From positions 3,945,888 through 4,009,887 of the forward strand of contig NC_092676.1 in NCBI RefSeq assembly GCF_964355755.1: a stretch of DNA of 64,000 bases. Reading direction: 5' to 3'. The notes under the pieces were generated by a model. That model was not told the DNA's origin. It ran no database searches and saw only the letters and a list, made by a program, of their open reading frames with translations. Position numbers and translations under genes: made by a program. Source of the stretch: Antedon mediterranea (taxonomy: Eukaryota > Animalia > Echinodermata). Positions 388 through 62,300 of the stretch are shown here, piece after piece (the stretch's first letter is position 1; every line of letters begins with the position of its first letter).

Positions 388-550
388 GTATATGTTTTTG
401 GGTGACTTTGTTGGTAATCCGTGTTTAGTGGTTCCCGTTGGATTCAGTCAGATGGGTTTGCCGATAAGTCTCCAGATCCATGGAAGATGGTGGGAAGAGG
501 ATATAGTACTACTCATCGGAAATGTGGCGGAGATGGCTTGTCCACCTTGA
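388..550 (+). CDS. Last coding exon of an upstream amidase (FAAH-like) paralog; gene begins before the window; premature TGA at 548-550, ancestral stop at 584-586
   Basis: Acceptor AG at 386-387; translation [38 protein letters not shown] is nearly identical to exon 6342-6537 of the downstream gene; CGA in the paralog is TGA here. Confidence 0.8.
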
Positions 551-7000: not shown

Positions 7001-16254
<9,254 letters not shown>

Positions 16255-19852: not shown

Positions 19853-22800
19853 TTCGAAAAATCTTTAACAATATAGTCAACTCTCTCAATGCTGGGCACC
19901 TTGGGCCGGCCTATATGTCTGGTTACCATAAAATTGTGGACCTTAAGAGAAGTCAAGTTCAACTTTTTTTTATCCGTGGAGGCCCAGATCAAATCAAGAT
20001 GGGGTTGTTGTTCCCTTGAGTAGTGTGAGAGTTTTGGGTTTTCAAAGTTTTTTCTAATCGTTTTGAATTGTAATTGAGGGTGTATTATGTACAGGTAGTT
20101 GAGTGCAAACTGATCTTTGATGTGATTGGACATCAACAATCACATGATAATGTAGACAGGATTCAAGTATAATGATTAAGTTGGAATGAGAAACATGTTT
20201 CTTTTGTCTTTTTATAAGTGAAATAATTATTTTTTGGGTTTTTTTTTTGACAGAAGTGAATAACTTTATTGAAACTGCAAAGTGGTCTATTTAAAGTCTG
20301 ATTTTATTAATCATAATTTTTCATATTTTTTGGGGACAATACATCTTTAAGAAATTTTTTCTTTTTTCATGTATTAGGGATGTAGTTCATTTTTTATTCA
20401 TTTATGGTGACAAAAAAATACAAGTATTCCATTTTTTAAGGTGCAATATATTTATAATAAAGTGTATTTACATTTAATAGAACAATTGCTTCCAATATTA
20501 GAATCAAAGTTTGCCATACTGAATTGTATCTTATCCCTGCCATATTTGCATAACTGTCTTTGTGTGCTCAATATTCCAATTTGTATTATCGCAGCTGTTT
20601 TTATGCTAAATAAAAAATGTACCAACGTTGTAGAAATATGTTAATACTGGTTTTTTTTTCACACTTTAACAAAACATTTAGCTGTGAGAGACTTGCTTGT
20701 GTAGTTTTTTTTAATTCATTTTTAAATCTTTTTAAAGAGTTTAGAATTTAAACATTCGAAATTCTCCCCTGTTTTACCATAATATACTAAATTCTCGGTG
20801 CTGTATCCCCGCAAGAGACTAATCATGCCCAATATCAAAGGAACATTATGTAATACAGCATCCCGTGTGTATCACATGTATTGCCTGTATCATGAAGGGT
20901 TAGATTTTGATTTATGATACTAGGCGATACATGTGAAACTCATGTGATGCTGTATCATGGAATTTCCTATGATACTGTAAAAAGACTGTAAAAGGAAAGT
21001 AGATACACTGCCAAGATAAGCATTGCTTTGCTTCCTGAAGCCAATTAAAACAGAAAAGAAAAGAAAGAAAGAAAATTTTACTAATTCCTGAATTGATAGC
21101 CTCAACTATCATAACTTTTTTTTTTAAATATTGTATTTATAATAACTGTAGAGTTGAGGTCACGATATTTAGAGGTAAGAGGGACCTGGAGGAATGTATG
21201 GAGTTGACATAGCTTATGTTTGTTTATGTTTTATAATATTACAGATGACAGGGACTTGGCATGTATGTATAGAGTTAAAATCACCTATTAATTTATTTAT
21301 CTTTTCCTGAAAATTGTACAAATACTTTGTCTCAAGTGATTTCATGTTCATATACTTCCTTGTTTTGTAGCTATAACAGGTTGTGAAACTTTTGTGTATC
21401 TTGTCAGTCATGCTTGATCGCCCGGCTTCACTCTCTCATGCTTTGTGAATTCTTTGAAAGTGGATCATTTATTATTTCCTGCAAGTGTGTTTTGAAATAT
21501 ACTTTAATTTAAGGTAAGTTTCTTGTATTATAAGCCGGGATTATAAGTGTCTATTCTAAGCCTATATATTATTAAAAACTGAGTTTTATTTTTAAGGAAA
21601 CAAAAAACGGAAATTCTATATGTTTAATATAGAAATGTGTTTATGAAAGGGCTTGTTTACAGCAGTTTAATTTGTAAGTTCAAATAGGACTTAACTGTAT
21701 AAAAAAGGACAATGAAATTGTGAGTCAACCACTGTATGAAAGGGCCTTAAATAGGACTTGAAGGTATTATATAAAGAATGGAACAATGGGGAAACTAAGT
21801 CGACAGAAATGCTAAATACTATTTGGTTTACCATTGCCCAACCTGTTGCAAAGTGTTAAATTATCCTTAGTTGACTCAGTACACCCTAAAAATGTGTTAT
21901 AATTATATAGAATTCACAAACTGTATACATATTTAATATTACATTTTTGGAACTCAAAATTGTATTTCTGAATTTTTAAAGATGTACTGTATTGTCCCTT
22001 AGAAAAAATAATTTTTAATTTTTTTTTTGTTGAATATGCCATTTTAATGTTGCATATATTTATCGACTTTGGATAAAATATTTATTTACCAAAAATAGTC
22101 CAAATGGCTGCTAGCCAATAAGTTTTTGGCTGAATTTGAACATTTATTTTGTTATTTTATATGAGAAAACAATATTTTTTCCTGCTTTTTTTTTTCAACA
22201 GAAGTGATTAACTTTAGTAACACTACACAATAACCCTATTCAAAGTCTTATTTAATTAATCTTCATTTTTGGGTGGGGGGTGGGGGGACAATACATCTTT
22301 AATTTTTTACTTTAATTATACTATAGAAATATAATCGAATCAAAACCACAACATTATAATTTTGATAATATTTTATATTGAATTGGAGTAAAATTTGTTT
22401 GTAGTTGGTTTAACACAAAGAGTATATTGTTATCATTCGTAGACAAAGAACAGCAAAACAGCTTTCTAATCCTCTTTGTCATAAAATTATTTGTTCTTTG
22501 AATACGACTGTTAAAAAGTAAAAAACCTGACCCATGGCAATTCATTTCCTCCTCTTATAAGTTAATAACAAAATAAACATAATTTTAAAAATTGATACAG
22601 ATTATGTTACAGAAGCTGTGGATTAATTTTAGGATAAATCTAAGGAAAAGAAAAATAATTTTATGGGATTGTTTCTTCTGCTATGAATAACTAATATATA
22701 TGTATATATAGTTTTTATTGCCTGCTTGCTCAGTCATGCATAAACATAGCTCATAAAGAATCTCCTTTGTGGCCTTGTCAGCTATTAAATACATACAGTT

Positions 22801-25979: not shown

Positions 25980-26074
25980 CATTTTGTTAATTATGGGATG
26001 ACGATGAATTTGATGATTGCAAAGACATTTAACATTATGTTAATTAGTATGCGTTGCTTTTGAATTTATAAAAT

Positions 26075-26310
26075 ACAGTACCATGAAAGCCATTGTGTAA
26101 TGGTAGGTGCCTGCAAATCAAGCAGGAGACTCCAAGTTCAAATCTATAGGCTGGAGCAACTGTTTTTTCCCACTAGTGCATGTAGTATGAGTTGCTACGT
26201 TATAACATACAGTGCCATGAATGCTATGGTCTAATGGTAGGATGTCTGCGTACCAAGCGAGAGTGTCCAAGTTCGAGTCTCGACTGGAGCACCTTTTTTT
26301 TACTAGTGCA
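26075..26310 (+). repeat. Two tandem diverged tRNA-derived units in the 3' region of the WAVE-like gene
   Basis: TGGTCTAATGGTAGG A-box-like, AGTTCGAGTC B-box-like, T-run followed by ACTAGTGCAT in both units. Confidence 0.55.
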
Positions 26311-26594
26311 TAAATATAGTTATATTTAATTATGTAGATAAATTGTTTTAGTAAGCATTTATTTTAATCATTTTTAATCATTGTAATTTTGTAAAACATT
26401 TTACCTGTAAATAAACTTTATATGCATTAAATAAAATATTATTTTTTTTTAATATGGAGATCCAAGGGGAGTGAGGAGAAGTTTATTGCAAATACTAGCT
26501 CCCCCTAAACTACAAAAAGAAATAAATGCAAAAGACATATCACTTCTTTTTACAATTTTTAGAAATGTGTTTCAAATAAAGACGAGTTATTTTT

Positions 26595-26720
26595 ATAGAG
26601 GGCGCATGTCACCTTGGTATAAAGTTAAATTCTTATAAAGAGGGCACGTGTCAATTTTTAAAGCCTGCTTTTCAACTTCGCGCGAATCGAAAACGATTGG
26701 TTTTTGCGCATGCGTATCGA
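26595..26720. promoter_or_regulatory. Putative promoter-like CpG-containing patch
   Basis: NRF1-like TGCGCATGCG at 26705, CACGTG at 26645, TTCGCGCGAA palindrome at 26677; motif-based only. Confidence 0.3.
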
Positions 26721-29224: not shown

Positions 29225-29290
29225 GAGGCGGCCTTGGTCACGTGGCAGGTCAAATTAAGGTCATATAACGCCATATTGGGTGAGTTTTTT
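29225..29290 (+). promoter_or_regulatory. Putative PICALM proximal promoter
   Basis: GGTCACGTGG E-box at 29236 and YY1-like CGCCATATT at 29270, about 120-170 bp upstream of the ATG; motif-based only. Confidence 0.4.
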
Positions 29291-29398
29291 TTCGCTCACA
29301 AAAACGAAGAATAACACATTTTGTTGAAGTATTCAATATAAAAACAACATTTTTTTGAGATTCTAAAAGGATATAATTGGTGAAATTCATCTTCCAGC

Positions 29399-32300
29399 AT
29401 GTCTGGGCAGAGTGTTTATGACCGTGTGGTTGCTGCAAAGCACACAATCACCGGTTCCGATCTTGACAAGTCTGTCTGCAAAGCTACGACGGAAGAAATT
29501 ATGGGACCGAAGAAAAAGCATCTTGACTGTGAGTAGGCCTATGGCTTATGCTTCTTGTCATCTGCATTCCGTTACTTACCTTTGATAGAATGACCTTCTA
29601 CATTATACATTTAAATATTGATTGGGTAGTAGTCTTATGAAACTAAGGTTAACACGAACATCTAATAATAATAACCCCAAGAAAAATCGAAAATATTATA
29701 AACGAACACAAAAAAGTCAAAAAAAAAAAATGTGTGAACCGTTGTGTGTTTTGTTTGTGGTTAGGCCTATGTTTTTGCCGATGAGAGAAATATCTGAAAG
29801 TTTTAATGGAACGTTTGTGAAAATTCATAGTGTGCTACCCTACATTAATTATGTAGGCCTATCCTATGTTCGAATTCTGTTTGTGTACAAAAATGTGTGA
29901 TAAAAAGTTTAGGCCTAGGCCTAGCCTATCTTTCAGTTCAGGACTGCTAAATGAATGTCAAAAGAGCTCCTGAAAACCAGTATATGCTAGGCCTAATCCT
30001 ATACTCTAGTCGCCTCAGTTTTATTTAGTTAAACAAAAATCTGGATTTTTTATAAATCTGAATTTTTATTTTATAACTTTTTACTAAAAAACTGAAACAT
30101 TTATTTATCGTGGCTAGAATCCAACCATAAAAATTCAAAGCAATGTAAAAATCAACTTTGGGAGTAGTACTAAAATGAGAATGCGTTTCAACCCAAATTT
30201 GGGGATGGGGGTTTAGAGTGAGGATTGGAGGTGGCTGGGTACAATGGTAAATCTCAAGCCACCACCAGCAATGAATTTGAACTTATTATTTTGGGAGTCA
30301 CTTTGTTTTCGCAGACTTCTTTTCGGGGAGGCGACTATTAATTATAATTTCATTTCTGACAACATCTTTGTAGGTTTCTGCAGGTTTTTCAGATGCTTAA
30401 TGGTTTACTGTGCTAAACTGTCTTATTGTCTTAAGCTCTGTCTACACTATAAAACTAATTTGACTAAAAAAGTGTGCTGATGTGCCCAAATATGGTAGTG
30501 ATATACCCAAATATGGTAGTGATATACCCAAATATGGTAGTGATATGACATCATCATGTCCATATATGGGCAAATCACTTAAGAGTCTGATAATGTAGCC
30601 AGAGTTTTCAACCATAAAATGCATTTACCTGTTGATATTGAACCACTGTACTGTGTGTAGCTACTTATGTATGCTAACAGTTCTTAGCCTTGGTATTGAG
30701 ATGGTTCCAGTACATTACAGTAGAAGCATTGATCTGTCCACAGGTGTAACCACTCTCCAGGTTGTTTCCATGTGAACCTTCAACTTTTTATTTCATCTTG
30801 TATAACTTCCCGTTAACAACTACAGTAAATTGAAAGATTTTGATGCTGGTACAGGAAGTACTATATTTAGGAAAGACATATTATGTCCACTATTGTTATG
30901 CAAATTAACAATAACATTTATTATTAATATTATGCAACAATACAAAAATATAAGCTTGGTTCCCACTACAGTAGGACACAATGTACTGACGTTCTCGTAC
31001 TGTAGCACACATGATTTGATCAATAAAAATTTAAATAAATTTATTGCTTGTGTTACATCTTTAAGTTGTGTCCTTCTAGTAAAAATCTAACTCTGAGTTA
31101 TTCTTCTTATACTGTAGGAATTTTTTTGTCAATAAAAAGTTATTTATTTATTTAATACTTTCTTATTTATATAGAAATTAAATCACAAATTCCTTTCCTA
31201 AATTCAGTAGGGCTAGGCTAATGCATTTCCTTTGCCAAATATAATTAAGGAACTACCTCAACAGTTTGTTTACCATGACACATGAGGCCATGACATTCAT
31301 GTTGTCTGGAATCTAAACACTATCGATCTTTCTGTAAACATGTGTGGAAGGGGCAGGGGACGAGGGGTATGGATTACAGTATTTCTAGACAAGATTTGAA
31401 CCAATGATTTTGAAATATTAATAAACTCTTACTGGATTACCATGATTACCGTATTCATTCTTTAGTTCTATAACAAATCGTTATGTACAGTATCACAGTT
31501 AATGGCTAAAGCTCTGTCTACACTATCAAACTAGTTTGACAAAAAAAGTGTGATGTTCCCAAATAGGGTAGTGGTATGCTCAAATATAGTAGTGATATGA
31601 CATATTCTGTATATAATATGGGCACATCACATGTTTTTGTCACATAAACAGACCTTGATTTATAAATATAAGAGGAGAGCTCCTAATGGCTCTCCTCAAT
31701 ATGTTGAGGAGAGCCATTATTTTGATTAAGTATCCGAGGCACAGGCCCACCATGGTTGGGCCTGTGGCGAGCCGAATTTTGATTATTGACACCTCTAGAT
31801 GGCCGGAAATGGTACTCTCGCACGTAAAATTCATCGTAGGTCATTGTTCTCTGAACGTAGTCCAACGATGTATTGTTATAATTATCTACGCGTCGTTCGT
31901 AGGGTTAGTAAACACCATTGTCATCACCTTTAGAAGCATGGACAATGCAAACAAACAATGTATTGTTTGCTATTGCTAATTAAAATCCTATCTAAAGATA
32001 GTAGACATCAATTTTTGTAGCCACCCTAGCTAGGCCTACGCATCGGTATCCTAATTTGGACGGAAATCCGCCGACGAGACGACATCGGGTCCGTGGACCT
32101 CAGCTCACGCAGAGAGAGAGTCGAGGCTATCTAGTCTAGTTTCGGTGGCCTAATACACTATAAATTATTTAATCCTACCTTGGGTTAGCGAATTATAAAA
32201 ACAACGACACCTAGCCTAGGCTAGGACACCAACAAAATATATGCAAAATAAATGTATATTCCATATTAATTACTATAAGATTTAACATAAAGGCTTAAGC

Positions 32301-35300
32301 CTTTTAAAATGATTACGACATGTGTATAAGAAAAGGCCCGACCAGAATTTGGAGGGGAAAACATGTGAGCAGGATCAGAGAGTATTATGTTTCATGTCAT
32401 GTGACACAAAATCCAGGTACACGATCTTAATTACTGTTTATCGTCGGCAGCCACCCTCTCGTACTAAGTTTAAAAAAAAACATGTGAGATGTTGCGGTAA
32501 AGCAGAGAGTATCGCGTTTCATGCCATGTGACCAAAAAAACTAGGTCTGTATAATTACGGTCTTCAGTCGGCAGTCTTTTTGAGCGACCGATTGAACGCT
32601 CTGATACTATATTTAGAATGAATTGTTTACGATATTTTTCTCGCAACATCAAAGATCGTAGGCGCGCCTAGCCTATCGGGGGTAGCCATAACAAAGATCG
32701 TTGTATTTGGGGTTAATCATTATATATATTTTTATGACGCACTGTAACAGGTTGGGGAGCGCTATTTTAGGCGCTCATTTGATCGTTTTCAGGAGCGCCA
32801 AGGAGCGTCAGCGCCATGGCGCTCCTTGGCGCTCCTGAAAACGAACAAAGGAGCGCCTAAAATAGCGCTCCCCAACCTGTTACAGTGCGTCATAAAAATA
32901 TATATAATGATTAACCCCAAATACAACGATCTTGTAAATGACTGTACACTCAACACACTTTTCATTGTTACACACTGTAGCTGAATCACTCAGCCACCAG
33001 CTATAAGGTATTGCCATACCCAAAATAAATGAATCAAACAATATAGTGGGAGGTTTTATTTGTAACGTGTGATCAAACAATGGTTTGATTGTTTAATGAT
33101 GATGTCATTGTCAATGAAACTAAAAGCATATTGACCTGTTTCTATATTTGGAGATTGTATGTGGGAATCATGTCAAAGATATTCTACTGCAGTTTGTAAT
33201 TGCAGTATCTAAATTTTTCACATCAATTGGAGTAATTTTATTAATTGTTTGTACCAGTCATTACAAGCAACTGAATGACTACGCTTAATTAACCAAAAAA
33301 AACCTTGGTAAATAATTGCATAAAATAATTAAAAGAGTAAACATGGTCCCTAAAGCTTGGTTCTTACTAGAGACACAACGCAAATGAATTGACCAATGAC
33401 AAATGACAGTTTGAATAATCAATTGCTTCTCATTGGTCAGCTCACTCCTGTTGCGTGTACGGCCTTGCGTTGCATATCTAGTGTGAACCAAGCATAACTA
33501 TAAATTTCTGTGTTTTTAATAATAAAAAGCAATAAAACAGATATGATATTCCTCTACCCCACACAATTTACTATCTGTAGTACGGTAACTACAGTACCAT
33601 CATTACTAACTACAGTACAGTATTACTTATTCTAAAACTGGAATTCCTCCCACACAGACATCAATACAATGCTTACTGCTCTGTATTGTAATCCTCTAGA
33701 GATTAGGATATTAACTATTCCTGTTCTATTTACTATATTTGGGTGTGAACATTTTTCTCTCTAAAAAAAAACCACATTTTATTAGACCAGTGAGGCTGGA
33801 ATAAATATATATTTTCAGATTAGGATAAAAAAAAAGAAATTTCATTTAACCAAATTAACTTAATCATTATGAAAAAAACATGTCTGTAGAAATACAGTAC
33901 GTATAATACTATAGTACATAATAGATACTAGGACTTCTAATATTAATTTTTTTTAATATGTCAATTTTGGTCTCTAGTTAAAATCAATTTGGAGTATATT
34001 TGATGAAAAAACTACATTTTGATTTTAAGTTCAATTTTAATACATAATTTAGGGATCATGCAAAAAACTATAAAACTATTTTTTTACTTAAGTCAACTTT
34101 AATACATGATTTAGTTTGTTTTAATGTACTGTACATTAACAGTATATATGAGGCAAGCACTGCAATAACAGTGTGTATGATTACCCAAACAAGATTGCTA
34201 AATAATAAACAGATTAAAGAATAAATAAATGTAAAGGTCGTTATTACAGTAACTGCAGTAAAATATTTTCGACATTGTCCCTAATTAACGGGATTAATTA
34301 TGAAAAAGAGTTTTTTTTTACTTTTCCTTTTATTTTAGCCACTTTGCCAGCTAGCTTTCATTTTCAAACATTGGAGATATTTTAAGGAGGAGTCAATTAA
34401 TTAGTGATAAATGTAGTTAACAAGTTCAAAGGTCAAATCCCACCACCAGTTAATGCTTGAATTACCTATAGCGTTGTACATACTGCTGGCATCATGTGTT
34501 TTAAGAATGTTGCTAAGTAGGCACATTACAGACTAATGGCTGTTCGGAATGCTGCTAATGAAAATGTTAGTCTCTAAACATTTTAGGACGTTATCGTCGT
34601 TGTATCTTTCCTGTTTAAAAACGATAAAGCGACATGGCGTAATTGTAAGAGATCCTGTAAAATAAAGTAGGCATTGGTTTTTTGTGAGAACATGTGGCGC
34701 AGTTTGTTGGACGTTTGTCTACTGATTGTAAGATTGAGGTTCGAATCCAACTCTTGCCGCATTGCTTGTATCCTTTAGGCAAGATACTTTACTTATGTTT
34801 GCCTCTCTCCATCCAGGTGTGTAAATGGGAACACAGTTAAATTAAGACACAGCTTTGCGCTGATTACTAGCTGCATTATGGGAGTTATGTTTCCATACGT
34901 GTTTGATCCACAAAAAAAATGACTGGGATAATAATGTTCAGCGCTAAGAGGTTTCATATAAATCCAGGATATTATTATTATTTATACTGTAGACTTGTTT
35001 GCTTTACCCTCATTGCCTCATCCTTTGGATGGAACGTAAAGCAGGTGGTCTAGTGTACAGTCAGTATAAGCTGAATGAATGCATGATAAAAAACTTGGTT
35101 TACATGTTGCTAGCCTAAAGTTATCCAGACAATAACAAATCCTGGTTGCTAGCCTAAAGTTATCCAGACAACAACAAATACAGGTTGCCAGCTTAATGTT
35201 GTCCCTGAGACAACAACAACAATTTCTGGTTGTTAGACTATAGTATACCCAGACAACAAAATTCCTGGCTGATAGCCTAACGTTATCCAGACAACATCAA

Positions 35301-38300
35301 CAAATCGTCGTTGCAGAGTCTAGATCCAATTTAGTTAAAATCAATACTTCATTTATTAACGTTTGTAGCTATAATGAACTGCTTAATATGTTAAGATAAC
35401 ATCACATCCCTTACAGTTACATAGCAAATAATTTAGGGTACTTCTTCAAAAAGCCGCCTTGTAAAATTTGAAATTGTACATTATGAGGGTTTTCATATGC
35501 AACATTTTTATAATAAATATATATAATATTATTTCATTTTTTTTTCTGATCAGAGATTATCAAATTCTAACTACAGTATATTGGAAATAGAGAAAACGCA
35601 AAGTTACACTTACAGTAAACAATATTGTTTTTTTTTTTTTTTTGCATTTGTGAAAACAAATTTCGTTTTTTATTCAGTTTAGTCATGGGCGGATCCTGGA
35701 TTTCTTAAATGTGGATTTCTAACATAATTAGGCTGTCAAAAATAGATTTTTTTTAAATAGTTAATTAGTTCAGTTTAGCTTTCATGAAATGAAAGGGTGA
35801 CCCAAGTTCTACCCCCTGGATTCACCCCTGTTAATTACATAACATTGACAAGAATAAAAGGAAAACCAAACTGTATATATTAAGGATATTTGTGAATATT
35901 TATAGTAAATAGAAAATTATCTAACAATCTTTATAGACAATACTGTACTTCATCATCATAAAATGTCTCATTGAGTCATAATAATGTTGTATTACATAAC
36001 ATTTCTTTTTGAACAACCAAAAATAGTATAAGCGAACTTACAGTACGTTTCGCTTATACTATAAGTTCGCTTATACTATTTTTGGTTGTTCAAAAAGAAA
36101 TTTTATGTAATACCTATTCCACAACCAGATGAAATTCTTCCAACAATAATGTTGTAGTAGTCTATATCGTGCCTAGCTTACTGTACCTGTATAAACCGAC
36201 AATAGCCTGTGCTCTCCAGAGGGAGGGCTTTAGATACGAAAGTGAAAATGATGACGGTGGTACGTTGGTACGTTCCCACATGAGGGCTTGGTTGCGGACT
36301 GGTCCATTATAATACAGGGGTGTTCTAGAAACTTTTCACTTTCGTATCTAAAGCCCTCCCTCTGGAGAGCACGGGCTATTGTCGGTTTATACCGGTAAGC
36401 TAGCACTCATAAACTATTAACACCACTACTTGTTCGTGTATTTTAAAGTAAGCAGCCATGGCGCTCAAGTTTGATTGGCCAATACATTAAGTACAAACAA
36501 GCAATAGTTTTGTAACTGATAAGATTTTGATGCGAGACAGGACTTGAACATTGGACCCTGGGCTTGGTAATGTAGCAGTACGGTAAATTATTAACAACAT
36601 TTTAAAACACTTAACAGTAAAATTGATTGGTCAGGTGTTTGCTCTGATGTACAGTAATTTGTGAACATACATGCAAGTAATTTTTAGGGATTTGAACCCA
36701 CTGCTTTAGCCTGCCATTTATATTACAGTAAAACCTTCCTTTTGATATCCCTATTCAGTAGACACTTTCACTTGAAACAACGCAAGGCAATATATGCTTA
36801 CTGTAAACATCCAGGCCAATATATACAGGTATAGGCACACCTTTATTTATAATAATCACATTTTAACATGAAGAAAAATTTAATTCAACAAAGAATTTCC
36901 TTTGTGGTTTAATTTTAATAAGTCTATGTACATTTGTTAATATTTTCCTCTGTACATAGTTAGCTCTTCCAAAATTCAAAAATTATACATAATGTATGTG
37001 CTATTGTGATTGCTGCTATAAATCAGCTTAGAAATACTGCTAAACACACTTTGTTAGGTCAAACCAGAAGGTGTCCCTTATTACTGTGGGGGTTGGTTCT
37101 ACTACAGGTTGAGTAAACTACAGTACTCTTCGGGGGACCCCTATTAAGGAGTCATTTTGCTGGGTCTAGCCTGAATGTGTCCTCTTAATACGGTTCTACT
37201 ACTGGTAATACAAGTAAAACTACTACAGTATTCTGGGGACCCGAGCCTGAAGTCCCCTTAAGCATGGTTCCCACTAGAACACAACGTATTGCGGAATCAC
37301 AAGTGGGAACCGACGACGTAACAGTGCTACAAACATCGCTACGGGAAATCAAATCAGTTCGATTTCAACAACGCAAGGCAAAAAGAACACCGGAAAATAT
37401 AGTATAGCGCGTACTCAAAGGTACGGTCTAGTCAATTATTGCATTTGCTTATGTTGCGTTATGTTGCGTAGCTAGTGGGAACCAACATTTAATCAACGTT
37501 CTACCGTAATTATGTAAAACTAAAATTAACTAACTAACACTAACAGTGCATCATTTTACCAATTTATTTTAAGTTAATACAAACTGTCAAGGTTATATTC
37601 TGTGGGTGTGTATTGTACCATTCAGTTCTAATAAAGGATATATCAAAGTCTAGTCATCGAACTATTGTATTTAAATCCTAAATATAGAAAATGCTATGAA
37701 AAAAATCTCTTTCACTTTTTATAAAGAACAGAATATAAAAGCTAATACCAATACACATTTTTAACAGAATACAATGTGAATTCTTTTGTTCTTCGTTTTA
37801 ATATTTGTAATTATCTTTGAACCGGAAACTTATTGTATATCGTGAACACAGGTTAATTGATAACTCTATTTGATAGTAACACCAAGTACTACAGTACAGA
37901 AAGAAATTACTGCTTCGTATCTACGCGTAGGCTTTCGTAGGTAGATCGTAGGTAGAACGTAGGTCATTGTTCTCTCATACGATGTATTGTTTGTAGCCTA
38001 CGATGTATTGTTTGTAGCCTACGATGTATTGTTCTCTCCTACGATGTATTGTTCGTAGCCTACGATGTATTGTTCGTAGCCTACAATGTATTGTTCTCTC
38101 CTACCTACGATGTATTGTTCGTAGCCTACGATGTATTGTTATGAAATCTAGGCTACGCCTCGATCGTAGGGTGGTTCGTAGAAGCATGGACAATGCAAAC
38201 AAACAATGTATTGTTTGCTAATTAAAATCCTACAAAGATTAGTAGGTCAATTTTTGTAGCCGCCCTACGCATCGGTTATCCTAATTTGGACGGAAATCCG

Positions 38301-41300
38301 CCGACGAAACGACATCGGGCCGGTGGACCTCAGCTCACGTAGAGAGAGTCGAGGCTAGGCCTAGCCTGTTTCGGCAGCCTACACTATAAATTATTAAATT
38401 TATTTCTACCTTGTTGGGTTCGCGAATTATAAAAACAACGACACCTAGGCTAGGACACCAACAAAATATATGCAAAATAAATATATATCCCATATTAAGA
38501 TTTAACATACATAAATAGGCCTTTTAAAATGATTACGACATGTATAAAGAAAAAGGCCCGACCAGAATTTGGAGGGAAAAACATGCGAGCTGAGCAGTTT
38601 AGAGAGAGTATTACAGTATGTTTCATGTCATGTGACACAAAATCCAGGTACACGATCTTAATTACTGTTTTATCGTCGTCAGACGGTAGCCACCCTCTCG
38701 TAGAGCTCATACTTAGTAAAAAAAACATGTGAGAGATTGCGGTAAGCAGAGAGTATCGCGTTTCATGCCATGTGACCAAAAAAAAAACTAGGTCTGTATT
38801 AATTACGGTCTTCTGTCGGCAGTCTTTTTGAGCGACCGATTGAACGTCCTGATGCTATATTTAGAATGAATTGTTTACGATCTTTTTTTCTCGGCATCGT
38901 TTCTGGATAGGACGTTCGCTATATTATGTTTATGTTGGCCTGTTCCTTGCGGTTCACCTGTGTTGGATCGTGTCTCTCTTATTATACATCGTGGGAAATT
39001 TATATTTATATTCGCCGTTGAGTAGGTAAACACGCACGAAGGAAAATATTACGATTAAAAAATATTATTTATTTTTTATTAATTTACAACTTTGTCCTCC
39101 GCCAATTAAATTTAACACATTAATTTCACACCTTACTTCACTAAGAACATCGTAGGGTTGTTTATTTAGGTTACGAACTCCCTACGAAGTTCAGAACGTA
39201 GCTCATTGAAAGTTGTTTATTGAGGTTACGAAGCCAAACAATGGAACCTACGAAGCCAACAACGTAGCCTACGTTCTATCTACGAAGCTACTTTGTAGGT
39301 AAAGTTGCAGTATTTTCTTTCTGTACTGTAGTACTAGTAAACTACAGTACAATATAGAACACAAAGTGAATAATAGGTTTACAGCTAATAGGGCGATTTC
39401 AATTTGTGATGACCTATGACCTAAGCATGTTGTGTCGTAGGTCATCGGCCTTGAATCCACCAAAACTGTGTCGCGGAATCGAGCGAGAAAGTGCATACGC
39501 ACAATGAATTAACATGATGTACAGTAACTTGTCCTACAGCGTAAGATCGAAAGCTCCATAAGAATGGGTGTACAGTATTTGACCTCTCAGCGACCTTAAT
39601 GTGTAAACGTGGAATTCTATGTTGTGCAAATATAGTACAGTAAGAAGCGTATCCTTTTCCAGGCTGCCTCAAACCAAGATTAGGGTTTAATTTCAGATAC
39701 ATAATTAATCTAATTAATTCCCTAAGAATAGTGGATTTTGAATAGAAGACATCCAGGTTAATTAAATTAACATTGTGTTTAATAACCAAAGAAGAATGAA
39801 TTAATTTTTTTTATTTATTTTTTTATTTTATTCGATTGAATAAAATAAAAAAATAAATAAAAAATAATAATTCTACTGCAGTAACAACAATTTTATGTAT
39901 GATTTAAGTTTGTTTCAGTGTAGAACTTTATGAGGTATTATGATTATCCCAAGAGTTTCCTAAATAATTTTAGTTGTCTATATCGTGCCTAGCTTACCTG
40001 TATAAACCGACATAGCCCGTGCTCTCCAGAGGGAGGGCTTAGATACGAAAGTGAAAAGTTCCTGGAACACCCCTGTAATATAATTAATATGTAATTACTG
40101 CGGTAACTGCAGTAGAATATTTTGACATGGTCCCTATGAAAACAGAGGATTATTAGGCTCTGTCTACACTATTAAACTATTTTGACTAAAAAAGTGTAGT
40201 GATGTTCCCAAATATGGTAGTGATATGATATGATCATGTCCATACATGGGCACATCACATTTGATAATGATAGTGTAGACAGAGCTTTACAGTATACTCA
40301 AATTGAGTTTATTAATGAAATTTTTTTGAAAATCTATTTATTCAATGAAAAATGAATTTATTATTTTGCTTTTTCAGATTTAATGCATTGTTCAAATGCG
40401 CCACAAATTAATATTCCAGAACTTGCTGATAAGCTAACGAACAGAGCACTAAGTCAAAATTGGGTTGTGGTGTTCAAATCACTTGTAACATGCCATCATT
40501 TGATGATATATGGTAACGAAGTAAGTAAACTGCAAGTCTATGTTTCATTTAGTAGAATAGAATGAATTACTGCAGCAACATACATTACTGCAGTTTATAG
40601 AATTACTGTCATCAACAATAGGCCTACGGTTTTAATAGAATGTACTGTAAGTAATTATCATTACAGCCATAATGTAATGAATTCAATGAATCAGTTGCAA
40701 TGCATTACTGCAGCAACATATAATTACTGCAGTAACATATAATTTTATTGATAGCAACATATATTACTACATAATAATGCCACTGACAAAATTTGAAATT
40801 AGAATACTGTATTCCATACTAATGGAAGTTACAAAGATTATAAAGTACTATCAAATAATAACATAATAATTATCTTCAGAAGTATACGCACGGTATACAT
40901 TATGCTTGACTTACAGTAGTTATAGAGTGAACATACAGTACAGTACAGTTAGCATTATGCTTGACTTAGTTATAGAGTGAACATACAGTACAGTTAACAT
41001 TATGCTTGACTTTGTTATAGAGTGACCATACAGTTAGCATTATGCTTGACTTAGTTATAAAGTGAACATACAGTTAGCATTATGCTTGACTTAGTTATAA
41101 AGTGAACATACAGTTAGCATTATGCTTGACTTAGTTATAAAGTGAACATACAGTTAGCATTATGCTTGACTTAGTTATAGAGTGACCATACAGTTAGCAT
41201 TATGCTTGACTTAGTTATAAAGTGAACATACAGTTAACATTATGCTTGACTTTGTTATAGAGTGACCATACAGTTAGCATTATGCTTGACTTAGTTATAA

Positions 41301-44300: not shown

Positions 44301-47300
44301 CTATGCCACTAAAGTCAGTAATTTCTGTCTAATAGTTAGTAAGTAACGCATAATGCAATGTAATTATTATAATTCATATGAAGTGTATTATTTCTAATGG
44401 CATTATTTCTAAATTTCTAAAACATTAATTTGATTTTAGAATTTGTCCATTTGAAAACAAATATGATAATATTAATTATTGTAACAAACACTGATTATCC
44501 TTCATATTTGAATAAAGTAATTGATTATAAAAAATATAAATTAGGAATTAAATAAATTGTATCACGGTTCGAATATTTAAGGACTTATCTACATGATTAA
44601 AATATATTAAATTACCGTATATCCTCCGGTATAATCCCACTTCTGGTCTAATCCCACCTCCAGGCCTTGTCTTTTAAGGCGAGCGAGTATGATCACTCAC
44701 TAAACACACTCCTAATCTGCCCTTGAGGTGTGCGATCGACAACACGCTTAAATTTGGTAAACTTCTACACACTAAAATACAAACAGCACACCTACAGCAC
44801 CCCTGAATGTATTGAGGAGTGCAATTTGTAGCACATTTATAATTTTCATACTGTAAGACCAGACCTGCACCTTACTCCACTTTATGTCTAATATCACAAA
44901 CAGGCATATCCTCAGGTATAGGCTCAGTATTGACGTTTGGTCTGGATGTACTGTAGGCCTCTCTCTAGCCAGTTCAGATGAGTTTTTACAAAAAGAAATG
45001 CTTCATAATCATGTTTTTTCTGAATTAGGGATTCCCTGGGTATAGTCTCCACCCCAAAGTGGGCCAAATTTCATTTTCTTGGGGATTGGGATTATATCAT
45101 AGGATATACGGTAATTGTTATTAAATTATAACTCAAAGCAAACTACATAAATATTGTTAATTAATAATTTTACTTAGAGGGAAAGTTTTGATAACAAAAC
45201 AATAATTGTAAAACATGATCCAAATTAAAAATGACATTTTGATATGGTCCCTTCATAACTGGTAATTGATATCAACAATGAAACAAGTCATGTAATATTA
45301 AGTGAGTCATATACAAATAGTTTGTTCACCTCGCATCTTTCATACAAAATACAAATACATACAAGGCTTTGATCTAGGAATAAACCTTAAGCTTTGTCTA
45401 CACTATCAAACTATTTTGATAAAAAAAAGGTGTGATGTGCCCTAATATGGTACAGTAGTGATATGCCTAAATATAATTAGTGATACAACATCATCATGTC
45501 CATATACAGTACTGTATGGGCACATCACATTTTTTCTTTCACATAAAGTTTGATAGTGTAGACAGAGCTTTAAAATGAATCTAAATAAATTATGAAAATG
45601 ACACACAAATTAATATACAAATTAATGTATAATAATAATGTATTCATGTAAAACCCTTGGTTGATGATTCAGATTATTTTTTAATTAAACTCAAAAAATA
45701 TCTTAATAATATCTTTGTGGTCACAAAAAAAGAAAGGTTGTTATTATACTGTAGTAACAATTTCATTTATATTTCAAATGCAGGGAATAATTGTGTTATA
45801 CTACATACACTGATTATGACAACTGTATTTATATTGTACAGTATACTATACTTATTCATTGTTTTTTTATAATGTTAAAACTATGTTAATTGTGGATACT
45901 TTAATTAAATAAATAATTTTGAAAATCCATCATATCTACCTACATTTTATTTATAATTATTGATTTTATTATATATCTTAATAATATGTCTTTGTGTTAT
46001 TATTTTTACGTGCTTTATATAGGATATGAAATGTCTACATATATCAGAAGATATGCTAAATACGTGAATCAGAAAGCGGTCTCCTACAGACAGGTCGCGT
46101 TTGATTTTTGTAGAGTGAAAAGAGGGTAAGTATAAAAATAATAAGACGGAAAAAAAAGTGGTGATTGTGACCATTAAATTTTAAGTGCAGTCAACTCTTT
46201 TAATACTGGGCTGTCAAAAAACTGGAAACTTTCCCAAAACCAGACTTTTGTTGAAAGAACCCATTTTCTTTGTTACCATTAAAAGCAAATTTAGATTAGG
46301 CCTAATAATAATATTCTGGATTTATATACAGTAGCGCCTAATGTTGTGAAACCTCTAAGCGCTGAAAGTTATTACCCCAGTCATTTTTTTTTTATCAAAC
46401 GTGTATGGAAACATACTCCCATAATGCAGCTAGTAATCAGCGCAAAGTTGTGTTTTGATCTAACCGGTTTCCCATTTATACACCTTGGTGGAAAGAGGCA
46501 AACATAAGTATCTTGCTTAAGGATACAAGCAATGCGGCGAGAGTTGGATTCAAACTTCGATCTCGCGATCAGTATGAGAATGTCCAACACACTGCGTGAC
46601 ACGCCCTTGGAAACCTGACAAAATTAACTTGAAAACCATACATATTTGGTCAGCCTAAGGGTGTCCGGTATTGGGAGAGTTGACTGTACTACCATTTTCA
46701 TTTTAACATGGCTCTGTTAGTGCCATCATATCTTCTGAAGGAAAAATAAAATGCTGTGAATTTGTGTAGAAAATGAGTGATGAAATGGAGTAGTTAATCA
46801 ATGAGTGGATTGTAATGAAAGCAAATAGCAAGCTGAGCAGACACTTCATACGTATTCCTATCTTTAGACACAATGCGATGCTTATTTGTATGATATCTCA
46901 AGCTGTGAATAACTACGGTACTGCACAGTATCCTCTTCAGATTCCACTGTTGCAGCCAGGTTTATTTCTGTTTAATTCTCAAGATTTCTACTTACCATTT
47001 TTGTTTATGTGTAGTTTTAAATTTAATGTTGTATTCAATTTTTATCATATTTGTTTTTATAGAAAAGAAGATGGATTGTTGAGGTCCATGCATACAGAAA
47101 AGGTACATGACTTTATATTTTAGTATACCATAAGGGATCATATCAACATTATGTTACTACGCGATAAAGCTAAATCTAAAGCTACAGGTATTCCGCTGCA
47201 GTCCCTGGCAAAATTTGTTTACTGTACATCACTAATAAAATCAGTCTTTAAAAAATAAAAAAACTTTTCTGGTCATTGATGTAAATTGATAGCAAGCAAT

Positions 47301-50300
47301 TAAACCTATTGAAATTAAGGTTCTGTTTCTGCTGCATAAAAATAACCTGTTTAAAAACGGTGTGAATAAATTAACCCAAATTTCTTGGACAATTTTTTGG
47401 TAGCCGGTTAGATGGCAGCGCAAAATAACCGATTAAAAACACCCATTCAATTCGGTGTTAGGATACATTTAACTGGTTATCACTGCGCAATTTTGAGCTG
47501 CAACACAAAATAACAGTTATTTGATTGAAAGCTGCTGACCATGAGTCAACTATACTGCAGTAACGTTTGAATTAACTGCCAGGACCAATTGCATTTTGGG
47601 TAATTCTAATGATTTTTGTCAACGACCACCCACTGATTTAAACGGTTATTTTGCAGTAAAAATTTAGCAGAAATGCAGTCAATATAAAAATTACATTTTA
47701 AATAAACGGTTTATTTAGCGCTATGCAGCAGAATCAGACCTAAAACCCCCTGGGATTATGCTAATGACAGGTGTTACTTTTTTGCAAACAGTGTTATTGA
47801 ATTTACTAATTAAACATCGGCCTGCTACAAAATTACTAATCGGAAAACACAGTGCTGTATCTCCATATGACATTTGACCAGTATCATAGAAAAATTCTGT
47901 AATACAGTGTCCCATGAGTATCACATGTGCTGCCTATATCGTGGAAGGTTAGGTTAAACACATGTGATGTTGTATCACAGGAGTTTCTTTGATACTGGTC
48001 AAATTGTAGATATAGCATAATCGGCTATCAGAAAATGTAATATTTAACTGATTATGTTTTCAATAGAATTGAAATGAAATAAATCGTAATAAAGTTACTC
48101 GGTAATTGAAATTCATTCTGGTTTACCTTAGCCTTAAATACGATACTCAGATTTTTCTCACTAGGATGGTAATCCGTAACCTTAAGCCTTGCTAAAATAA
48201 GATTAATTTCACAGATTTATATTTTTGCTACGGCAATACACTACTGTATAATAAAACCATTGTAGACATTTATATAGAGGTCCATTAAATTTAGACATGG
48301 TTTTAGTATAGGTTTTGTCATTTAAATGCTGATTGGTCACTACAGGGTCATAGGTTAAGTGAATTGATGATAAAAAAAGAGTAAGAGATTTTTTTTTGAT
48401 TTTTTAGCTGTTGAAAACACTACCCATACTACAGGACCAGCTGGACTGTCTACTGGAGTTTGAGGTCTGTTCAAATATAATTTATTGTAATTTTCTTTTC
48501 TAAATTTTACATTATAGATGTATTATCTCCCGAAACATGAAAAAATAAAGATGAAAAAAATCAAACTATGAATAGGCCATTTTGTAGTTTTAATAAAGAT
48601 ATTCACTTTAAAAATGTATTGTCCCCCAAAATCATGACAAAATAAAGATTTATAAAATCAAACTTTTAATAGGCCATTTGCTGTTTTAATGAAGTTATTC
48701 ACTTCCATAGAAAAAAATATTTCACTTTTTTTTTTTCACTAAATTAATTTTAACCAAAAACCATTGTATGACAGACAATTTAAGTACTTTTTGCTTTTAA
48801 ATTACATTTGTTTCAGGTAAATAATTTTTTTTTCTGATCTAGTTTTTTGTCAAAGTGAATAACTGTTAGTGACATTAAAATGGCATATTCATCACATTTT
48901 TTTAAATTTTTAAAATAGTCGTTTTAAGGGGACAATACTGTATTTTTATTTAAAACAAACACCCTCCTTTCCTCCAGACAAGGCGATATTTCTGTAGATT
49001 AAGGTTTTATCAGAAATAGTTTTGATCCAATTTTGTGTCAAAGTAAAATAATAATGTGATAATTATACAAGATACAAGATAACTTTATTGTTTTTCTCAT
49101 CGCAACTTAATATAAAAATAGATAAAATCATTAAAATGTTAAAACACAAAGTAAAATACACAGTACTGTAAAATATGTACAGATAACGGATAAATGCTAT
49201 CAGGTGTTCCCAGGTGTTCGAAAATACAATTATTTGTGTTTGTCATTATTACAGTATATTTAAATATGCATTGTGTTATGTAATAATGGCCTGTTTAATG
49301 CAACATGATGGTAGCTACAGTGGTAGCCACTTTTTTTGTTACTCACTTTAAGTCTGAAATACTGTAGACCTTAACAATTCCAAAGCCTTGCGTACTACAT
49401 TAAAGTTGTATCCTAGCAACAGGATATTTATGCATTATCAGTACTAAAAGTGTCTAATGCTCGTTTATTCATAATAAGTAATTTATTAAGGTTACACAGA
49501 ATGTTGTTGACATTTGTATGAATGCTGTATGTCGAAATAGACAAACTGTATGGCGTTTTGATTATTTTACAACTTGTACTTTATTTATTAGAATCGTAAA
49601 AGTAAATAACATATTAAAATTGAATAGGCCTATAGCAAATGGTAATTCATGGAAAGAAAAACAACAATCTATATTGTGCCTAGCTTACCTGGATAAACCA
49701 AAAATTGCCCATGCCCTTCTCAAAAGAGAGCTATGATATGTATAGCATTTTGATTATTTTACCACTTACTTTACTTACTTTATTTATTGGAATCGTAAAA
49801 GTAAATAACAGATTGAAATTGAATAGACTTATAGCGAAGGGTAATTATTAATTGAAAGAAATACAACAATCTATATTGTGCCTAGCTTACCAGGATAAAC
49901 CGAAAATTGCCCATGCCCTTCTCAATGGAGAGCTATGATCCATGAACATCCTTCTACAGTGCATTTTCCAGGGCATCATTTATAAGGAGCGCCTGCGCGA
50001 CCGCGCTCCTCCGCGCTCCTCAACAGGCTTCGAGGAGAGCAATTTATCGCGCTCCTTAATTTTCAAAATAGAGCCTAGCTTTTGACAGTGTTGATTTTTC
50101 TGTCAAGAGGCCTAAAAACACGTGGATTTTTAAAAGTTAAAACCAATCTAGGCCTAGGCTAATAATATATAAGCTAAGTTATAAAGCTACAAGCCTAATG
50201 GCAGTCCCTCGTTTTTAAGGATCGCGAGCGCGATCGCAATCAACAACCTTCGAAAAGGAGAGCAATTCATCGCGCTCCATCTCACAGTGCGATGTACCAA

Positions 50301-59300: not shown

Positions 59301-62300
59301 GTATGCTGGAGGCCAAGCTGATTATGGCACAGGCACAGTTTTGAGGCTCTTAATTGTCTTAAGCTCTGTCTACACTATCAAACTAGTTTGACAAAAAAAG
59401 TGTGATGTGTCCAAATATGGTAATGATATGCTCAAATATGGTGGTGATGTCCTTATATGGGCACATCACATGTTTTTGTCACATAAAGTTTGATAGTGTA
59501 GACAGAGCTTTATAAATTGAAATTGAATAAGGACTAAACATTAGGTTGGGATACAGTGTACAAATCTGGCTCTGCACTTAAAGATGGAAAGAATAGGAGT
59601 ACCTCAGTGTTCTGGTTCATTTAAGATCCTGTCATTGTTACAAGATTTTTTTTTTGGAAGAGGGGGGTGGGGGGATGTAGACCCTATTTGAATATAGTGA
59701 CAAGTATGTATAAAGTGTAAATCACCTATTAGAATAACTCACCCTAAGATAAAATGGCACCTTTGTCATAATGCAAAACAGACCTCCCAGTCTCTCAATA
59801 ACCGCCAGACAAAATTTTCTCCTGTCTCATTTTAAAGACTACAAACCGATAGTACATACATTTACCTTTACGAGGTTAACTAAAGGCAAAACAATTTTTT
59901 GGTGATGCCATCAATTATGATTTAGTGTTTTGTATTAAGGGAGCGTGCCCAAATGTTTTTACTCCGTTAAACTTGTTGTAACGCAAATTTTACCGTAATA
60001 TGCAAGCTAATTTAAATAGGGTTGGGCGTGTTCAGTGAGGCATATCAAGCCCTCCCTTTTACTAGCTACTATGCTGTTGTTATCACTCCATTGTTTAACG
60101 CGTAATTAACGGGAGACCGGACATGCTGTTCAGTGTTGCGTAACGATGATTCCAACGCGTTATTAACAGTCCTTGTTATGGTATGTTGCGTGAAATCCTA
60201 TGATGACTCAAAATAACGGGTTATTAGCAGTCCGGTCATTGTTGTTACAACGCGTTGGAACAACGTATATAATTATATTTATTAAAATAATCATGTATAA
60301 TACTATATCCTAGGCCTACCGTAAAATAAAAATATATATAGGCCTAGGCCTACACGGTAAAATAAAAATATATAGGTCTAAGCATACTATTTACGATCCG
60401 ATTCATGGTATTTTTTAGGCTGGTACGTCGGGCGACACGTGTCTAAATTTCTAATAGCCGACTTTCACCTGAAAAAAATACGTATTTTTTATCCCTGGAT
60501 GTAACATGATATTGACGCGAATACCGCACTACAGAGAGCTAGGCCATGAACGATTCGTTAAAAGTACACCGCCAGACAATCGCGTAGCTATTGTTTAGAT
60601 TACATACTATAAACAATTAATAACAAAGAAAGCCTAGAAAGATAAGCTCCTCCTCTCGTTAAAATTGTTAAATAATTTATTGTTATTTGTATATTACATA
60701 AAACCTCAGTACTGTGGAATAATGCTACACTCTATATAGGCCTACTGTCATTCAATACTATCGTCCGTTAGCTCGGCGTTTAACGGACACAAACACTCAG
60801 TAACCTGTGGAATAATGCTATACTCTGTATGCTGTCATTCAATACTATCGTCCGTTAGATCGGCGTTTAACGGACACAAAAACTCAGTAGATTGTGGAAT
60901 GATGCTACTCTATTGTAATTCAATACTGTACTATCGTCCGTTAGATCGGCGTTTAACGGACACAAAAACTCAGTAACCTGTGGAATGATGCTATACTCTA
61001 TATGCTGTCATTCAATACTATCGTCCGTTAGCTCGGCGTTTAACGGACACAAAAACTCAGTAAATTGTGGAATGATGCTACTCTATTGTAATTCAATACT
61101 ATCGTCCGCCGTTAGCTCGGCGTTTAACGGACACAAAAACTCAATACAGTATACCATGGAGCTATAAAATTGTATAGCTCCATGAGTATACTGTGGAATG
61201 ATGCTATACTCTATATGCTGTCGGCGTTTAACGGACACAAAAACTTAGTAAACTGTAGAATGATACTACACTCTATATAATAGGCCTACTGTCATTTAAT
61301 ACTATCGTCCGTAAACTCGGCATTTAACGGACTCAAAAACTCAGTAAAACTGTGGAATATGATGCTATATAATACTGTCATTCAATACTATCGTCCGTTA
61401 GCTCGGCGTTTAACGGACTCAAAAACCCAGTATACTGGGGAATGATGGTATACTCTATATGCAGCTGTCATTCAACACTATCGTCCGTAAACTCGGCGTT
61501 TAACGGACACAAAAACTCAGTAAATTGTGGAATGATGCTATACTCTATCTGTCATTTATTACTATCGTCCGTTAGCTCGGCGTTTAACGGACACAAAAAC
61601 TCAGTAATATAACCTGTGGAATGATGCTATACTCTATATTATGCTGTCATTTTAATACTATCGTCCGTTGGCTCGGCGTTTAACGGACACAAAAACTCAG
61701 TAAACTCCGGGAATGATGGGTATTCGAATGATGCATCTATATACTGTCATCTATCGTCCGTTAACTCGGCGTTTAACGGAACAACGCACTGAATAGTAAA
61801 TTCGCGCTTGGTTGAGAGCAAGTAGGGGAATTCCCTTTTTTGCGACGCCTCCCTACTGCAAGAAGGCAATGGCACATTGTTTTTATATATTTATTTTATA
61901 TATGTACTGTTAGTGTTTTGCCTATTACACCATTTAGGCCTAAATAGATACAATAATTGTTAATGTACACAGTTTTTTTTTGTATTTTGTAATAAACATG
62001 ACACCCTTGCAGCAGCATCACGGAGGCTGCCAAAAACACCGTGGTGCGTGTGTACATCGCATCGCGGTGATAAAAAACCATGTGCTTGCTAATAACGTGA
62101 CGTCATATCGCCCAAAGTTTCATCCTCTGTTTTTGGACACACTCGAGGTCAGCGATAGTTAAAGTAATAATTTATTTACGTAATACAATAATTGTTAATG
62201 TACACAGTTTTTTTAGTATTTTGTAATAAACATGACACCCTTGCAGCAGCATCACGGAAGCTGGCCAAAAACACTGTGGTGCGTGTTGTACATCGCTTCG

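What the first reader, a model, noticed from the sequence alone, without database searches (positions are those of the whole stretch)
21985..60930. Recurrent 5-bp TACAGTA/TACTGTA insertions at TA sites: a dense record of Tc1/mariner-type excision footprints
Seen: comparing repeat copies within the window, the same 5-bp insertion converts TA to TA-CAG-TA or TA-CTG-TA in unrelated families: 21985 (MITE B TIR), 30967 (vs 37271), 36179 (vs 39995), 38612 (vs 32385), 40934/40939/40984 (40-bp minisatellite, where slippage is an alternative), 44949 (vs 43180 revcomp), 45451 and a double at 45505-45516 (MITE A), 46327 (SINE tail), 48936, 60924 (75-bp array). Known: TACAGTA/TACTGTA is the canonical footprint of CAG-ended Tc1/mariner elements such as Sleeping Beauty. 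A CAGT-ended MITE is present at 46188-46686. Inference: repeated insertion and excision has been a major mutational process in this genome and may explain the general abundance of these heptamers in the introns.
Basis: partly seen in the sequence, partly recalled or inferred. Interest (0 to 1): 0.85.

Follow-up and report, generated by a model that had tools for sequence, protein, structure and literature searches.

The report
Transposon exit scars in feather star
In this feather-star DNA the same five letters have been added at TA sites in many unrelated repeats, making TACAGTA/TACTGTA the most over-represented seven-letter word outside the tandem arrays; these are likely scars left when cut-and-paste jumping genes landed and left again, which would make that cycle a sizeable source of small mutations.

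Summary
Confirmed. The window is from a feather star (Antedon-like). TACAGTA/TACTGTA occurs 90 times against 13 by shuffling; outside tandem arrays it is the top 7-mer (83 against 15). One more was found (40912). Seven of 16 five-base gaps between repeat copies are this event (null 0.6%, p 3e-12). The rate, about 1 per 90 substitutions, predicts 1.5 scars per kb, matching the observed excess of 1.2-1.4. Scarred sites favour G next to the TA and avoid ATAT, closer to a pogo than to a Tc1 target preference. A CAG-ended MITE with pogo/Tigger-like ends sits at 46188-46686, and its relatives elsewhere end at TA. No transposase was found in the window, no genome was held, and no site was seen in both filled and scarred form. 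The scar is textbook; its natural density was not found in nine paper searches. This scan noted the same or similar scars earlier in a placozoan and other animals.

The parts
21985..21991 (.). TACTGTA insertion scar in the end of MITE B
   Evidence: copies at 16474 and 52433 have plain TA; one mismatch from a tandem duplication
30967..30973 (.). TACAGTA insertion, weak (38-base alignment to 37271)
   Evidence: one mismatch from a tandem duplication
36179..36185 (.). TACTGTA insertion at the edge of a hairpin MITE
   Evidence: a CTGTA lies 3 bases away in the empty allele and could have served as template
37889..39331 (.). E1, 1.4-kb non-coding repeat with terminal inverted repeats, TA on both sides; ends are either CAG (37892-39328) or CTA (37889-39331), unresolved; its ends supply 2 of the 90 heptamers
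   Evidence: contig depth rises from 1,857 to 87,280 across 37891/37892 against about 255 for single-copy DNA; no Pfam hit
38612..38618 (.). TACAGTA insertion scar inside E1
   Evidence: left out in depth 13,978 of 15,391
40912..40918 (.).
   Evidence: (17 partners), distance 3 from a duplication
40934..40990 (.). three heptamers that equal tandem duplications of the unit's TACAG; slippage or scar
   Evidence: distance 0
44949..44955 (.). TACTGTA insertion scar
   Evidence: against 43180 reverse complement
45451..45457 (.). TACAGTA insertion scar in MITE A
   Evidence: (7 partners)
45505..45516 (.). double scar, one of each orientation, 10 bases added at one TA of MITE A
   Evidence: (7 partners)
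46188..46686 (.). E2, CAG-ended MITE of about 190 bases with pogo/Tigger-like ends, interrupted by a SINE at about 46298-46607; flanks TG and TA
   Evidence: relatives L001-L030; TIR match in PMC7386202 supplement 3
46327..46333 (.). TACAGTA insertion scar in the SINE that sits inside E2
   Evidence: against the copy at 54035-54345
48936..48942 (.). heptamer at the same TA of MITE B as 21985; outer flank unalignable, not confirmed as an insertion
60924..60930 (.). TACTGTA insertion scar in the 87-bp array
   Evidence: (3 partners)
29528..40379 (+). first long intron of the PICALM-like gene; densest stretch, 32 heptamers, 2.95 per kb

Best explanation
The 5-base additions that turn TA into TACAGTA or TACTGTA are shown in many unrelated repeats, and they are most likely excision scars of CAG-ended, TA-targeting cut-and-paste transposons of the IS630-Tc1-mariner group, probably pogo-type. 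Inferred mechanism, taken from Sleeping Beauty work: the element inserts at TA and duplicates it; on excision the transposase leaves a 3-base CAG overhang on each flank; the two overhangs pair with one central A:A mismatch, are joined, and the mismatch resolves to either CAG or CTG. Short scars would be near neutral while whole insertions are purged or cut out again, so scars would accumulate and outnumber resident elements: about 65-70 excess heptamers against 1 or 2 CAG-ended elements in this window. Shown: the insertions, their direction where sister copies are many, both orientations, the rate, the target bias and a resident CAG-ended MITE. Inferred: insertion followed by excision, the enzyme and the family.
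For: Excess: 90 against 13; 83 against 14.6, top 7-mer after masking. Gap spectrum between repeat copies: 10, 18 and 10 gaps of 4, 5 and 6 bases; the 18 rows are 17 loci, 8 of them this event; 7 of 16 without the duplication-like one, null 0.6%, p 3e-12; among 5-base gaps with TA on both sides 8 of 11 against 11.8% expected, p 4e-6. Both orientations, 6 CAG and 5 CTG among the 11 non-duplication events. Direction: 38612 is absent from 91% of contig depth. Sequence equals the canonical footprint (bioRxiv 10.1101/659086 and PMC6943129, passages). Rate 1 per 93 substitutions (47-214) predicts 1.5 per kb (0.7-3.0) at steady state; observed excess 1.2-1.4 per kb. Target bias: G next to the TA in 48 of 162 half-sites against 26.5 expected, p 4e-6, kept after dropping stacked scars and with a local background, absent in 1,258 half-sites of other TANNNTA words; ATAT 3 against 9.2. 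The pogo element Passer inserts at AAGTACTT (PMC9976928, passage); the Tc1 element ZB prefers AT repeats (PMC7913693, passage). E2's terminus defines 158-180-base MITEs in other organisms whose unconstrained far end is followed by TA in 17 of 22 loci; its first 12 bases equal the TIR start of Hydra and coelacanth Tigger elements with TA/TA target duplication (PMC7386202 supplement 3 rows).
Against: No transposase family hit in 160 ORFs of the window (11, 149 of the 172 listed), and no genome to search. No site was seen with the whole element in one copy and the scar in another. E1 may end in CTA rather than CAG: that boundary gives a target site matching 7 of 8 bases of the Passer consensus. 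E2's left flank is TG. The target bias stops at the first base; positions -2 and -3 show none, so the pogo match is partial. Four of nine single events are one mismatch from a tandem duplication (background 24.5%), and 36179 has a near template. Thirty loci of other organisms that carry E2-like MITEs hold only 0.31 heptamers per kb, so the element alone does not give this density. Trichoplax has abundant ACAGT repeats with very few transposons (PMC2871265, passages). The non-canonical Sleeping Beauty footprints are not enriched here (TACATA 57 against 63-77, TACTA 171 against 157-180, TACGTA 8 against 9-10); PMC6943129 says canonical repair dominates in embryos, so this weighs little.
Confidence: 0.83

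Rival explanations
1. A transposase-like or host enzyme writes the 5 bases without a lasting insertion, for example by aborted integration or by a domesticated pogo-derived protein, or repair copies them from transposon ends.
For: Scars outnumber CAG-ended elements by tens to one in the window; only one scar form is enriched; ACAGT is the commonest microsatellite in the transposon-poor Trichoplax genome (PMC2871265 passages); E2-like MITEs elsewhere sit in DNA with few heptamers.
Against: No such activity is known to me (recall). Ordinary insertion and excision gives exactly this product, a suitable element family is present, and selection against long insertions would give the same ratio (inference).
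Confidence: 0.09
2. Replication slippage or local templated duplication, with later point changes, makes the insertions.
For: Explains 40934/40939/40984 exactly; 4 of 9 single events are one mismatch from a duplication; 36179 has a near template.
Against: None of the events outside the minisatellite has distance 0; five have distance 2 or 3; one-mismatch contexts make up 24.5% of all TA sites, so 4 of 9 is unremarkable. Slippage would not converge on one 3-base core in 8 of 11 TA-bounded gaps.
Confidence: 0.04
3. The heptamer is a selected protein-binding or splicing motif, or the gaps are microhomology deletions of pre-existing heptamers.
For: Densest in the first PICALM intron, with 24 TACAGTA to 8 TACTGTA on the sense strand (p 0.007 uncorrected, one of 8 regions).
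Against: Events fall inside MITEs, a SINE and satellites and are private to single copies; the majority of sister copies lack them. TA-microhomology deletions would hit CWG cores in 11.8% of cases, not 8 of 11. The strand bias over all genes is 45 to 28, p 0.06.
Confidence: 0.04

Closest known systems
Canonical Sleeping Beauty footprints TACAGTA/TACTGTA (bioRxiv 10.1101/659086; PMC6943129; passages read)
   Same: Identical 7-base product, both orientations, at TA.
   Different: Seen there at single engineered donor sites; here natural, fixed or common, over 1 per kb, with no matching excess of the shorter non-canonical forms and a target bias away from ATAT.
pogo superfamily: Tigger, pogoR, Passer (PMC7386202 passages and supplement 3 rows; PMC9976928 passages)
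   Same: CAG-started TIRs with TA duplication, including echinoderm pogoR entries; E2 shares its first 12 bases with Hydra and coelacanth Tigger TIRs; Passer's target has G-TA-C at its centre and leaves 0-4-base footprints.
   Different: No transposase seen here; only the first flanking base matches the Passer consensus; I saw no text giving the exact footprint sequence of a CAG-ended pogo element (one search found no paper).
Genome-wide excision survey in rice (PMC4423477, passages)
   Same: Concludes that excision is a major source of diversity.
   Different: There 8 of 94 excisions were perfect and most left deletions or filler; here one uniform 5-base product dominates what can be seen.
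ACAGT microsatellite of Trichoplax adhaerens (PMC2871265, passages)
   Same: Same 5-base unit; stacked scars such as those at 29171, 33611 and 45505 are two-unit seeds of it.
   Different: Published as a possible regulatory repeat, with no mention of footprints (0 occurrences); here the units are mostly single and scattered.

Membership tests
Canonical IS630-Tc1-mariner excision footprint | TA + terminal 3 bases of the element + TA, in either orientation | tested here: met
   6 CAG and 5 CTG among 11 non-duplication events
Canonical IS630-Tc1-mariner excision footprint | Derived addition at a pre-existing single TA | tested here: met
   majority of sister copies have plain TA; 91% of contig depth at 38612; events with a single partner are not polarised on their own
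Canonical IS630-Tc1-mariner excision footprint | Not a tandem duplication of adjacent bases | tested here: met
   distance 1-3 for 11 sites, distance 0 for the 3 minisatellite sites
Canonical IS630-Tc1-mariner excision footprint | CAG-ended, TA-duplicating elements in the same genome | tested here: met
   E2 at 46188-46686; far end followed by TA in 17 of 22 related loci from other organisms; E1's ends unresolved
Canonical IS630-Tc1-mariner excision footprint | Same site seen with the whole element in another allele or copy | tested here: inconclusive
Canonical IS630-Tc1-mariner excision footprint | Cognate DDD/E transposase in the genome | not testable with these tools
   no genome held; none among 160 window ORFs
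pogo superfamily (Tigger/pogoR/Passer) as the source | Short TIR of pogo type with TA duplication | tested here: met
   E2's first 12 bases equal two Tigger TIR entries with TA/TA in PMC7386202 supplement 3; this classifies E2, it does not prove E2's family made the scars
pogo superfamily (Tigger/pogoR/Passer) as the source | Target preference centred on G-TA-C (Passer) | tested here: inconclusive
   G at -1 48 against 26.5; GTAC 5 against 2.0 (p 0.05); C also raised, -2 and -3 flat
pogo superfamily (Tigger/pogoR/Passer) as the source | DD29-56D transposase with CENP-B_N/HTH_Tnp_Tc5 and DDE_1 domains | not testable with these tools
   no genome; none in the window or in 5 long ORFs beside related MITEs
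Tc1 DD34E (Sleeping Beauty/ZB type) as the source | Preference for TA within AT repeats | tested here: not met
   ATAT 3 against 9.2, A and T at -1 both below expectation; ZB preference from PMC7913693, that of Sleeping Beauty recalled
(ACAGT)n microsatellite grown by slippage | New unit adjacent to an identical unit | tested here: not met
   met only at 40934/40939/40984

The most novel reading that the evidence does not exclude
A high-flux insert-and-excise cycle of pogo-type elements acts as a sequence-specific mutator: about one scar per 90 substitutions, hundreds of thousands per genome, far outnumbering resident elements. The scars keep a readable record of vanished transposases (end sequence and target preference) and, with TAGGCCTA and kin, account for the top non-coding words of many marine animal genomes, including seeds of the placozoan ACAGT repeat.
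Probability: 0.4. Interest if true: 0.72.

Novelty: new member of a known kind. Interest (0 to 1): 0.5.

Why it matters
If true, excision scars are a measurable mutation class in this animal: about 40% of the 5-base gaps between repeat copies and about 1% of the substitution count. They would give a way to count and date transposon activity that copy-number surveys miss, to read an extinct transposase's target preference from host DNA, and they warn that the top enriched words in echinoderm regulatory scans may be scars rather than binding sites. The chemistry is known; the scale and the testability are what is new.

Tried and rejected
Whole genome: none held, so nothing genome-wide was counted. 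Haplotype test: four runs of one sample were laid on 25200-40880; alleles differ, but the gap table showed 12 of 113 rows, all in repeats, so whether any scar is polymorphic is open. Apparent CAG-ended pairs at 17245/19555, 20856/20952 and 36315/40075 were rejected as internal parts of other repeats. Re-targeting of scars: 3 abutting pairs outside arrays against 1.3 expected, not significant. Strand bias (transcription-linked repair of the A:A mismatch would favour sense TACAGTA): 45 to 28 in genes, p 0.06, and CAG and ACAGT are themselves skewed on this strand; left as a lead. Decay products: one-mismatch neighbours 296 against 233, partly due to MITE-internal words; suggestive only. TACACTA and TACCATA excesses (23 and 26 against about 11.5) were not pursued since MITE A contains both words. 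No TA-flanked GGC-ended element was found in the window. Rfam gave only two tRNA-like hits. Paper searches for a published account of natural, genome-wide accumulation of these scars: none found; the library lacks most subscription papers and Repbase, so this is not proof of absence.
Full report
Setting. The window is 33% G+C animal DNA. Exons match named proteins of the feather star Antedon mediterranea (WASF3-like 100%; amidase 95%), then Anneissia japonica. Four genes lie on the + strand: an amidase, a ZC4H2-like gene, a WASF3-like gene and a PICALM-like gene that runs from 29414 past the window's end. No whole genome was held.

The excess. TACAGTA (56) and TACTGTA (34) occur 90 times against 13.2 +/- 4.0 in dinucleotide shuffles, 0 of 100 reaching it. 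With seven tandem arrays masked, 83 remain in 52,663 bases against 10.3, 14.6 and 19.1 for Markov orders 1-3, the top 7-mer. Density is uneven: 0-0.5 per kb in the three compact genes, 0.12 in the young satellite region, 2.95 in the first long PICALM intron and 1.71 in the rest of that gene. One of the 90 lies in coding sequence (24298) and two are the ends of element E1.

The insertions. Ten are insertions at a TA that sister copies hold once, three (40934, 40939, 40984) equal tandem duplications, and 48936 has no alignable empty site. A further one lies at 40912. An unbiased scan of gaps between repeat copies (147-bp satellite region and three low-complexity stretches left out; 9,115 well-aligned positions) gave 10, 18 and 10 gaps of 4, 5 and 6 bases; the 18 are 17 loci, 8 of them TA to TA-C(A/T)G-TA, so the bump at 5 bases is this event. 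Its filter missed 21985 and 30967. The chance that a random 5-base gap reads so is 0.6%, even given the enriched word: 7 of 16, p 3e-12; conditioned on TA at both sides, 8 of 11 against 11.8%, p 4e-6. Direction is clear where copies are many: 7 partners in MITE A, 17 in the minisatellite, and at 38612 contigs with depth 13,978 of 15,391 lack the bases. Against my reading: 4 of 9 single events are one mismatch from a duplication (24.5% of all TA sites are) and 36179 has a near template.

Is the rate enough? Eight events on 10,340 aligned dispersed-repeat bases carrying about 740 branch substitutions give 1 per 93 (47-214); a low count of six gives 1 per 123. A 7-base word lost at seven times the substitution rate would then settle at 1.5 per kb (0.7-3.0); the observed excess is 1.2-1.4. 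This assumes a steady rate and uses rough substitution counts, but no second cause is needed. For a genome near 300 Mb (recalled; the laid contig sets hold 264-410 million letters) that would be a few hundred thousand scars if this window is typical, which is untested.

Mechanism. The two words are the canonical Sleeping Beauty footprints: staggered cuts leave 3-base overhangs, joined by end-joining with one central mismatch (bioRxiv 10.1101/659086 and PMC6943129, passages). The second paper states that canonical products dominate in zebrafish embryos and mouse stem cells, which fits the absence here of excess shorter forms. Scarred sites carry a target signature: G beside the TA in 48 of 162 half-sites against 26.5, p 4e-6; 39 of 153 against 21.9 after dropping stacked scars; unchanged with a local background; absent for other TANNNTA words; ATAT depleted, 3 against 9.2. 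Passer, a pogo element, inserts at AAGTACTT (PMC9976928, passage), while the Tc1 element ZB prefers AT repeats (PMC7913693, passage). The match is limited to the first base.

Candidate elements. E2 (46188-46686) is a CAG-ended MITE of about 190 bases split by a SINE, which itself holds the scar at 46327, so scarring went on after both arrived. A pattern from its end found 30 loci in metagenome contigs of other organisms; 24 gave a far end, 2 were duplicates, and 17 of the remaining 22 are followed by TA, which the pattern did not require; one further pair (L011, L023) may be a single locus; most are 158-180 bases. The first 12 bases equal Tigger TIR entries of Hydra and coelacanth with TA/TA duplication, and echinoderm pogoR entries also start with CAG (PMC7386202, passages and rows of supplement 3). 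Those 30 loci hold only 0.31 heptamers per kb, so such MITEs do not by themselves bring this density. E1 (1.4 kb) is a multicopy, TA-flanked, non-coding element, but its ends could be CAG or CTA. No transposase family was hit in 160 window ORFs (149 of the 172 ORFs listed were sent, none left of 16300) or in 5 ORFs beside the related MITEs.

Shown and inferred. Shown: excess, insertions, direction, both orientations, rate, target bias, a resident CAG-ended MITE. Inferred: that each scar passed through a whole insertion, that the enzyme was pogo-type (about 0.55 within the main reading), and that selection explains why scars outnumber elements. Not seen: a transposase, or a site in both filled and scarred form; the haplotype laying could not show this.

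Novelty. The scar is textbook. Nine searches (listings only, apart from the papers cited above, PMC4423477, PMC2871265 and PMC13079724, of which I read passages) found no account of its natural accumulation as a genome's top word; the rice survey reports mostly imperfect excisions and the placozoan paper does not mention footprints. bioRxiv supplements were not open to me, and subscription papers and Repbase were not searched. Earlier notes of this scan describe the same scar in a placozoan and TAGGCCTA or TACATGTA scars in other animals; they are unchecked AI notes and not counted as support. Verdict: a real feature, a known kind of scar at a striking and testable scale; interest 0.5.

Noticed in passing
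window 60737, 32027-32038, 662; 20 sites in all: TAGGCCTA is 18 against 0.7 outside arrays and often stacked with TAGGCTA/TAGCCTA (29910-29928, 50149, 60339). It appears as an insertion at TA at 60737 and, with a 4-base partner, at 32027-32038; 662 is weak. Likely a second scar class. A GGC-ended element would give it, since two GGC overhangs can pair through GC (inference), as would two bases kept from each GG end; no such element was found in the window.
   Followed up: partly
window 61143-61190: A 42-base hairpin insertion in the 87-bp array reads as a tiny CAG...CTG element with TA on the left and TG on the right; other readings need as few steps.
   Followed up: partly
window 29528-40379: Sense-strand excess of TACAGTA over TACTGTA, 24 to 8, p 0.007 uncorrected; 20 to 20 in the rest of the gene.
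   Followed up: partly
window 43811: A 6-base insertion in MITE B that reads as TA to TACATA plus TA on the minus strand, like a shorter Tc3-type footprint.
   Followed up: no
window 7444-14565: A young 147-bp satellite in inverted blocks with a 2.5-kb segmental duplication, each copy holding a tRNA-like SINE head (8755-8814, 11282-11341); nearly free of scars.
   Followed up: no
window 366-740 and 6321-6724: The last amidase exon occurs twice, showing a tandem paralogue ending upstream.
   Followed up: no
PMC7386202 supplement 3, pogoR row 46: The planthopper pogo element listed there contains stacked TACAGTA/TACTGTA runs in its own sequence, hinting that the same scarring occurs in an insect.
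   Followed up: no
window, 11 sites such as 28482, 31447, 36579, 46914: TACCGTA/TACGGTA is 11 against 3.4; it could be decayed scars or scars of CCG-ended (Passer-like) elements; three sites are inside repeats.
   Followed up: no
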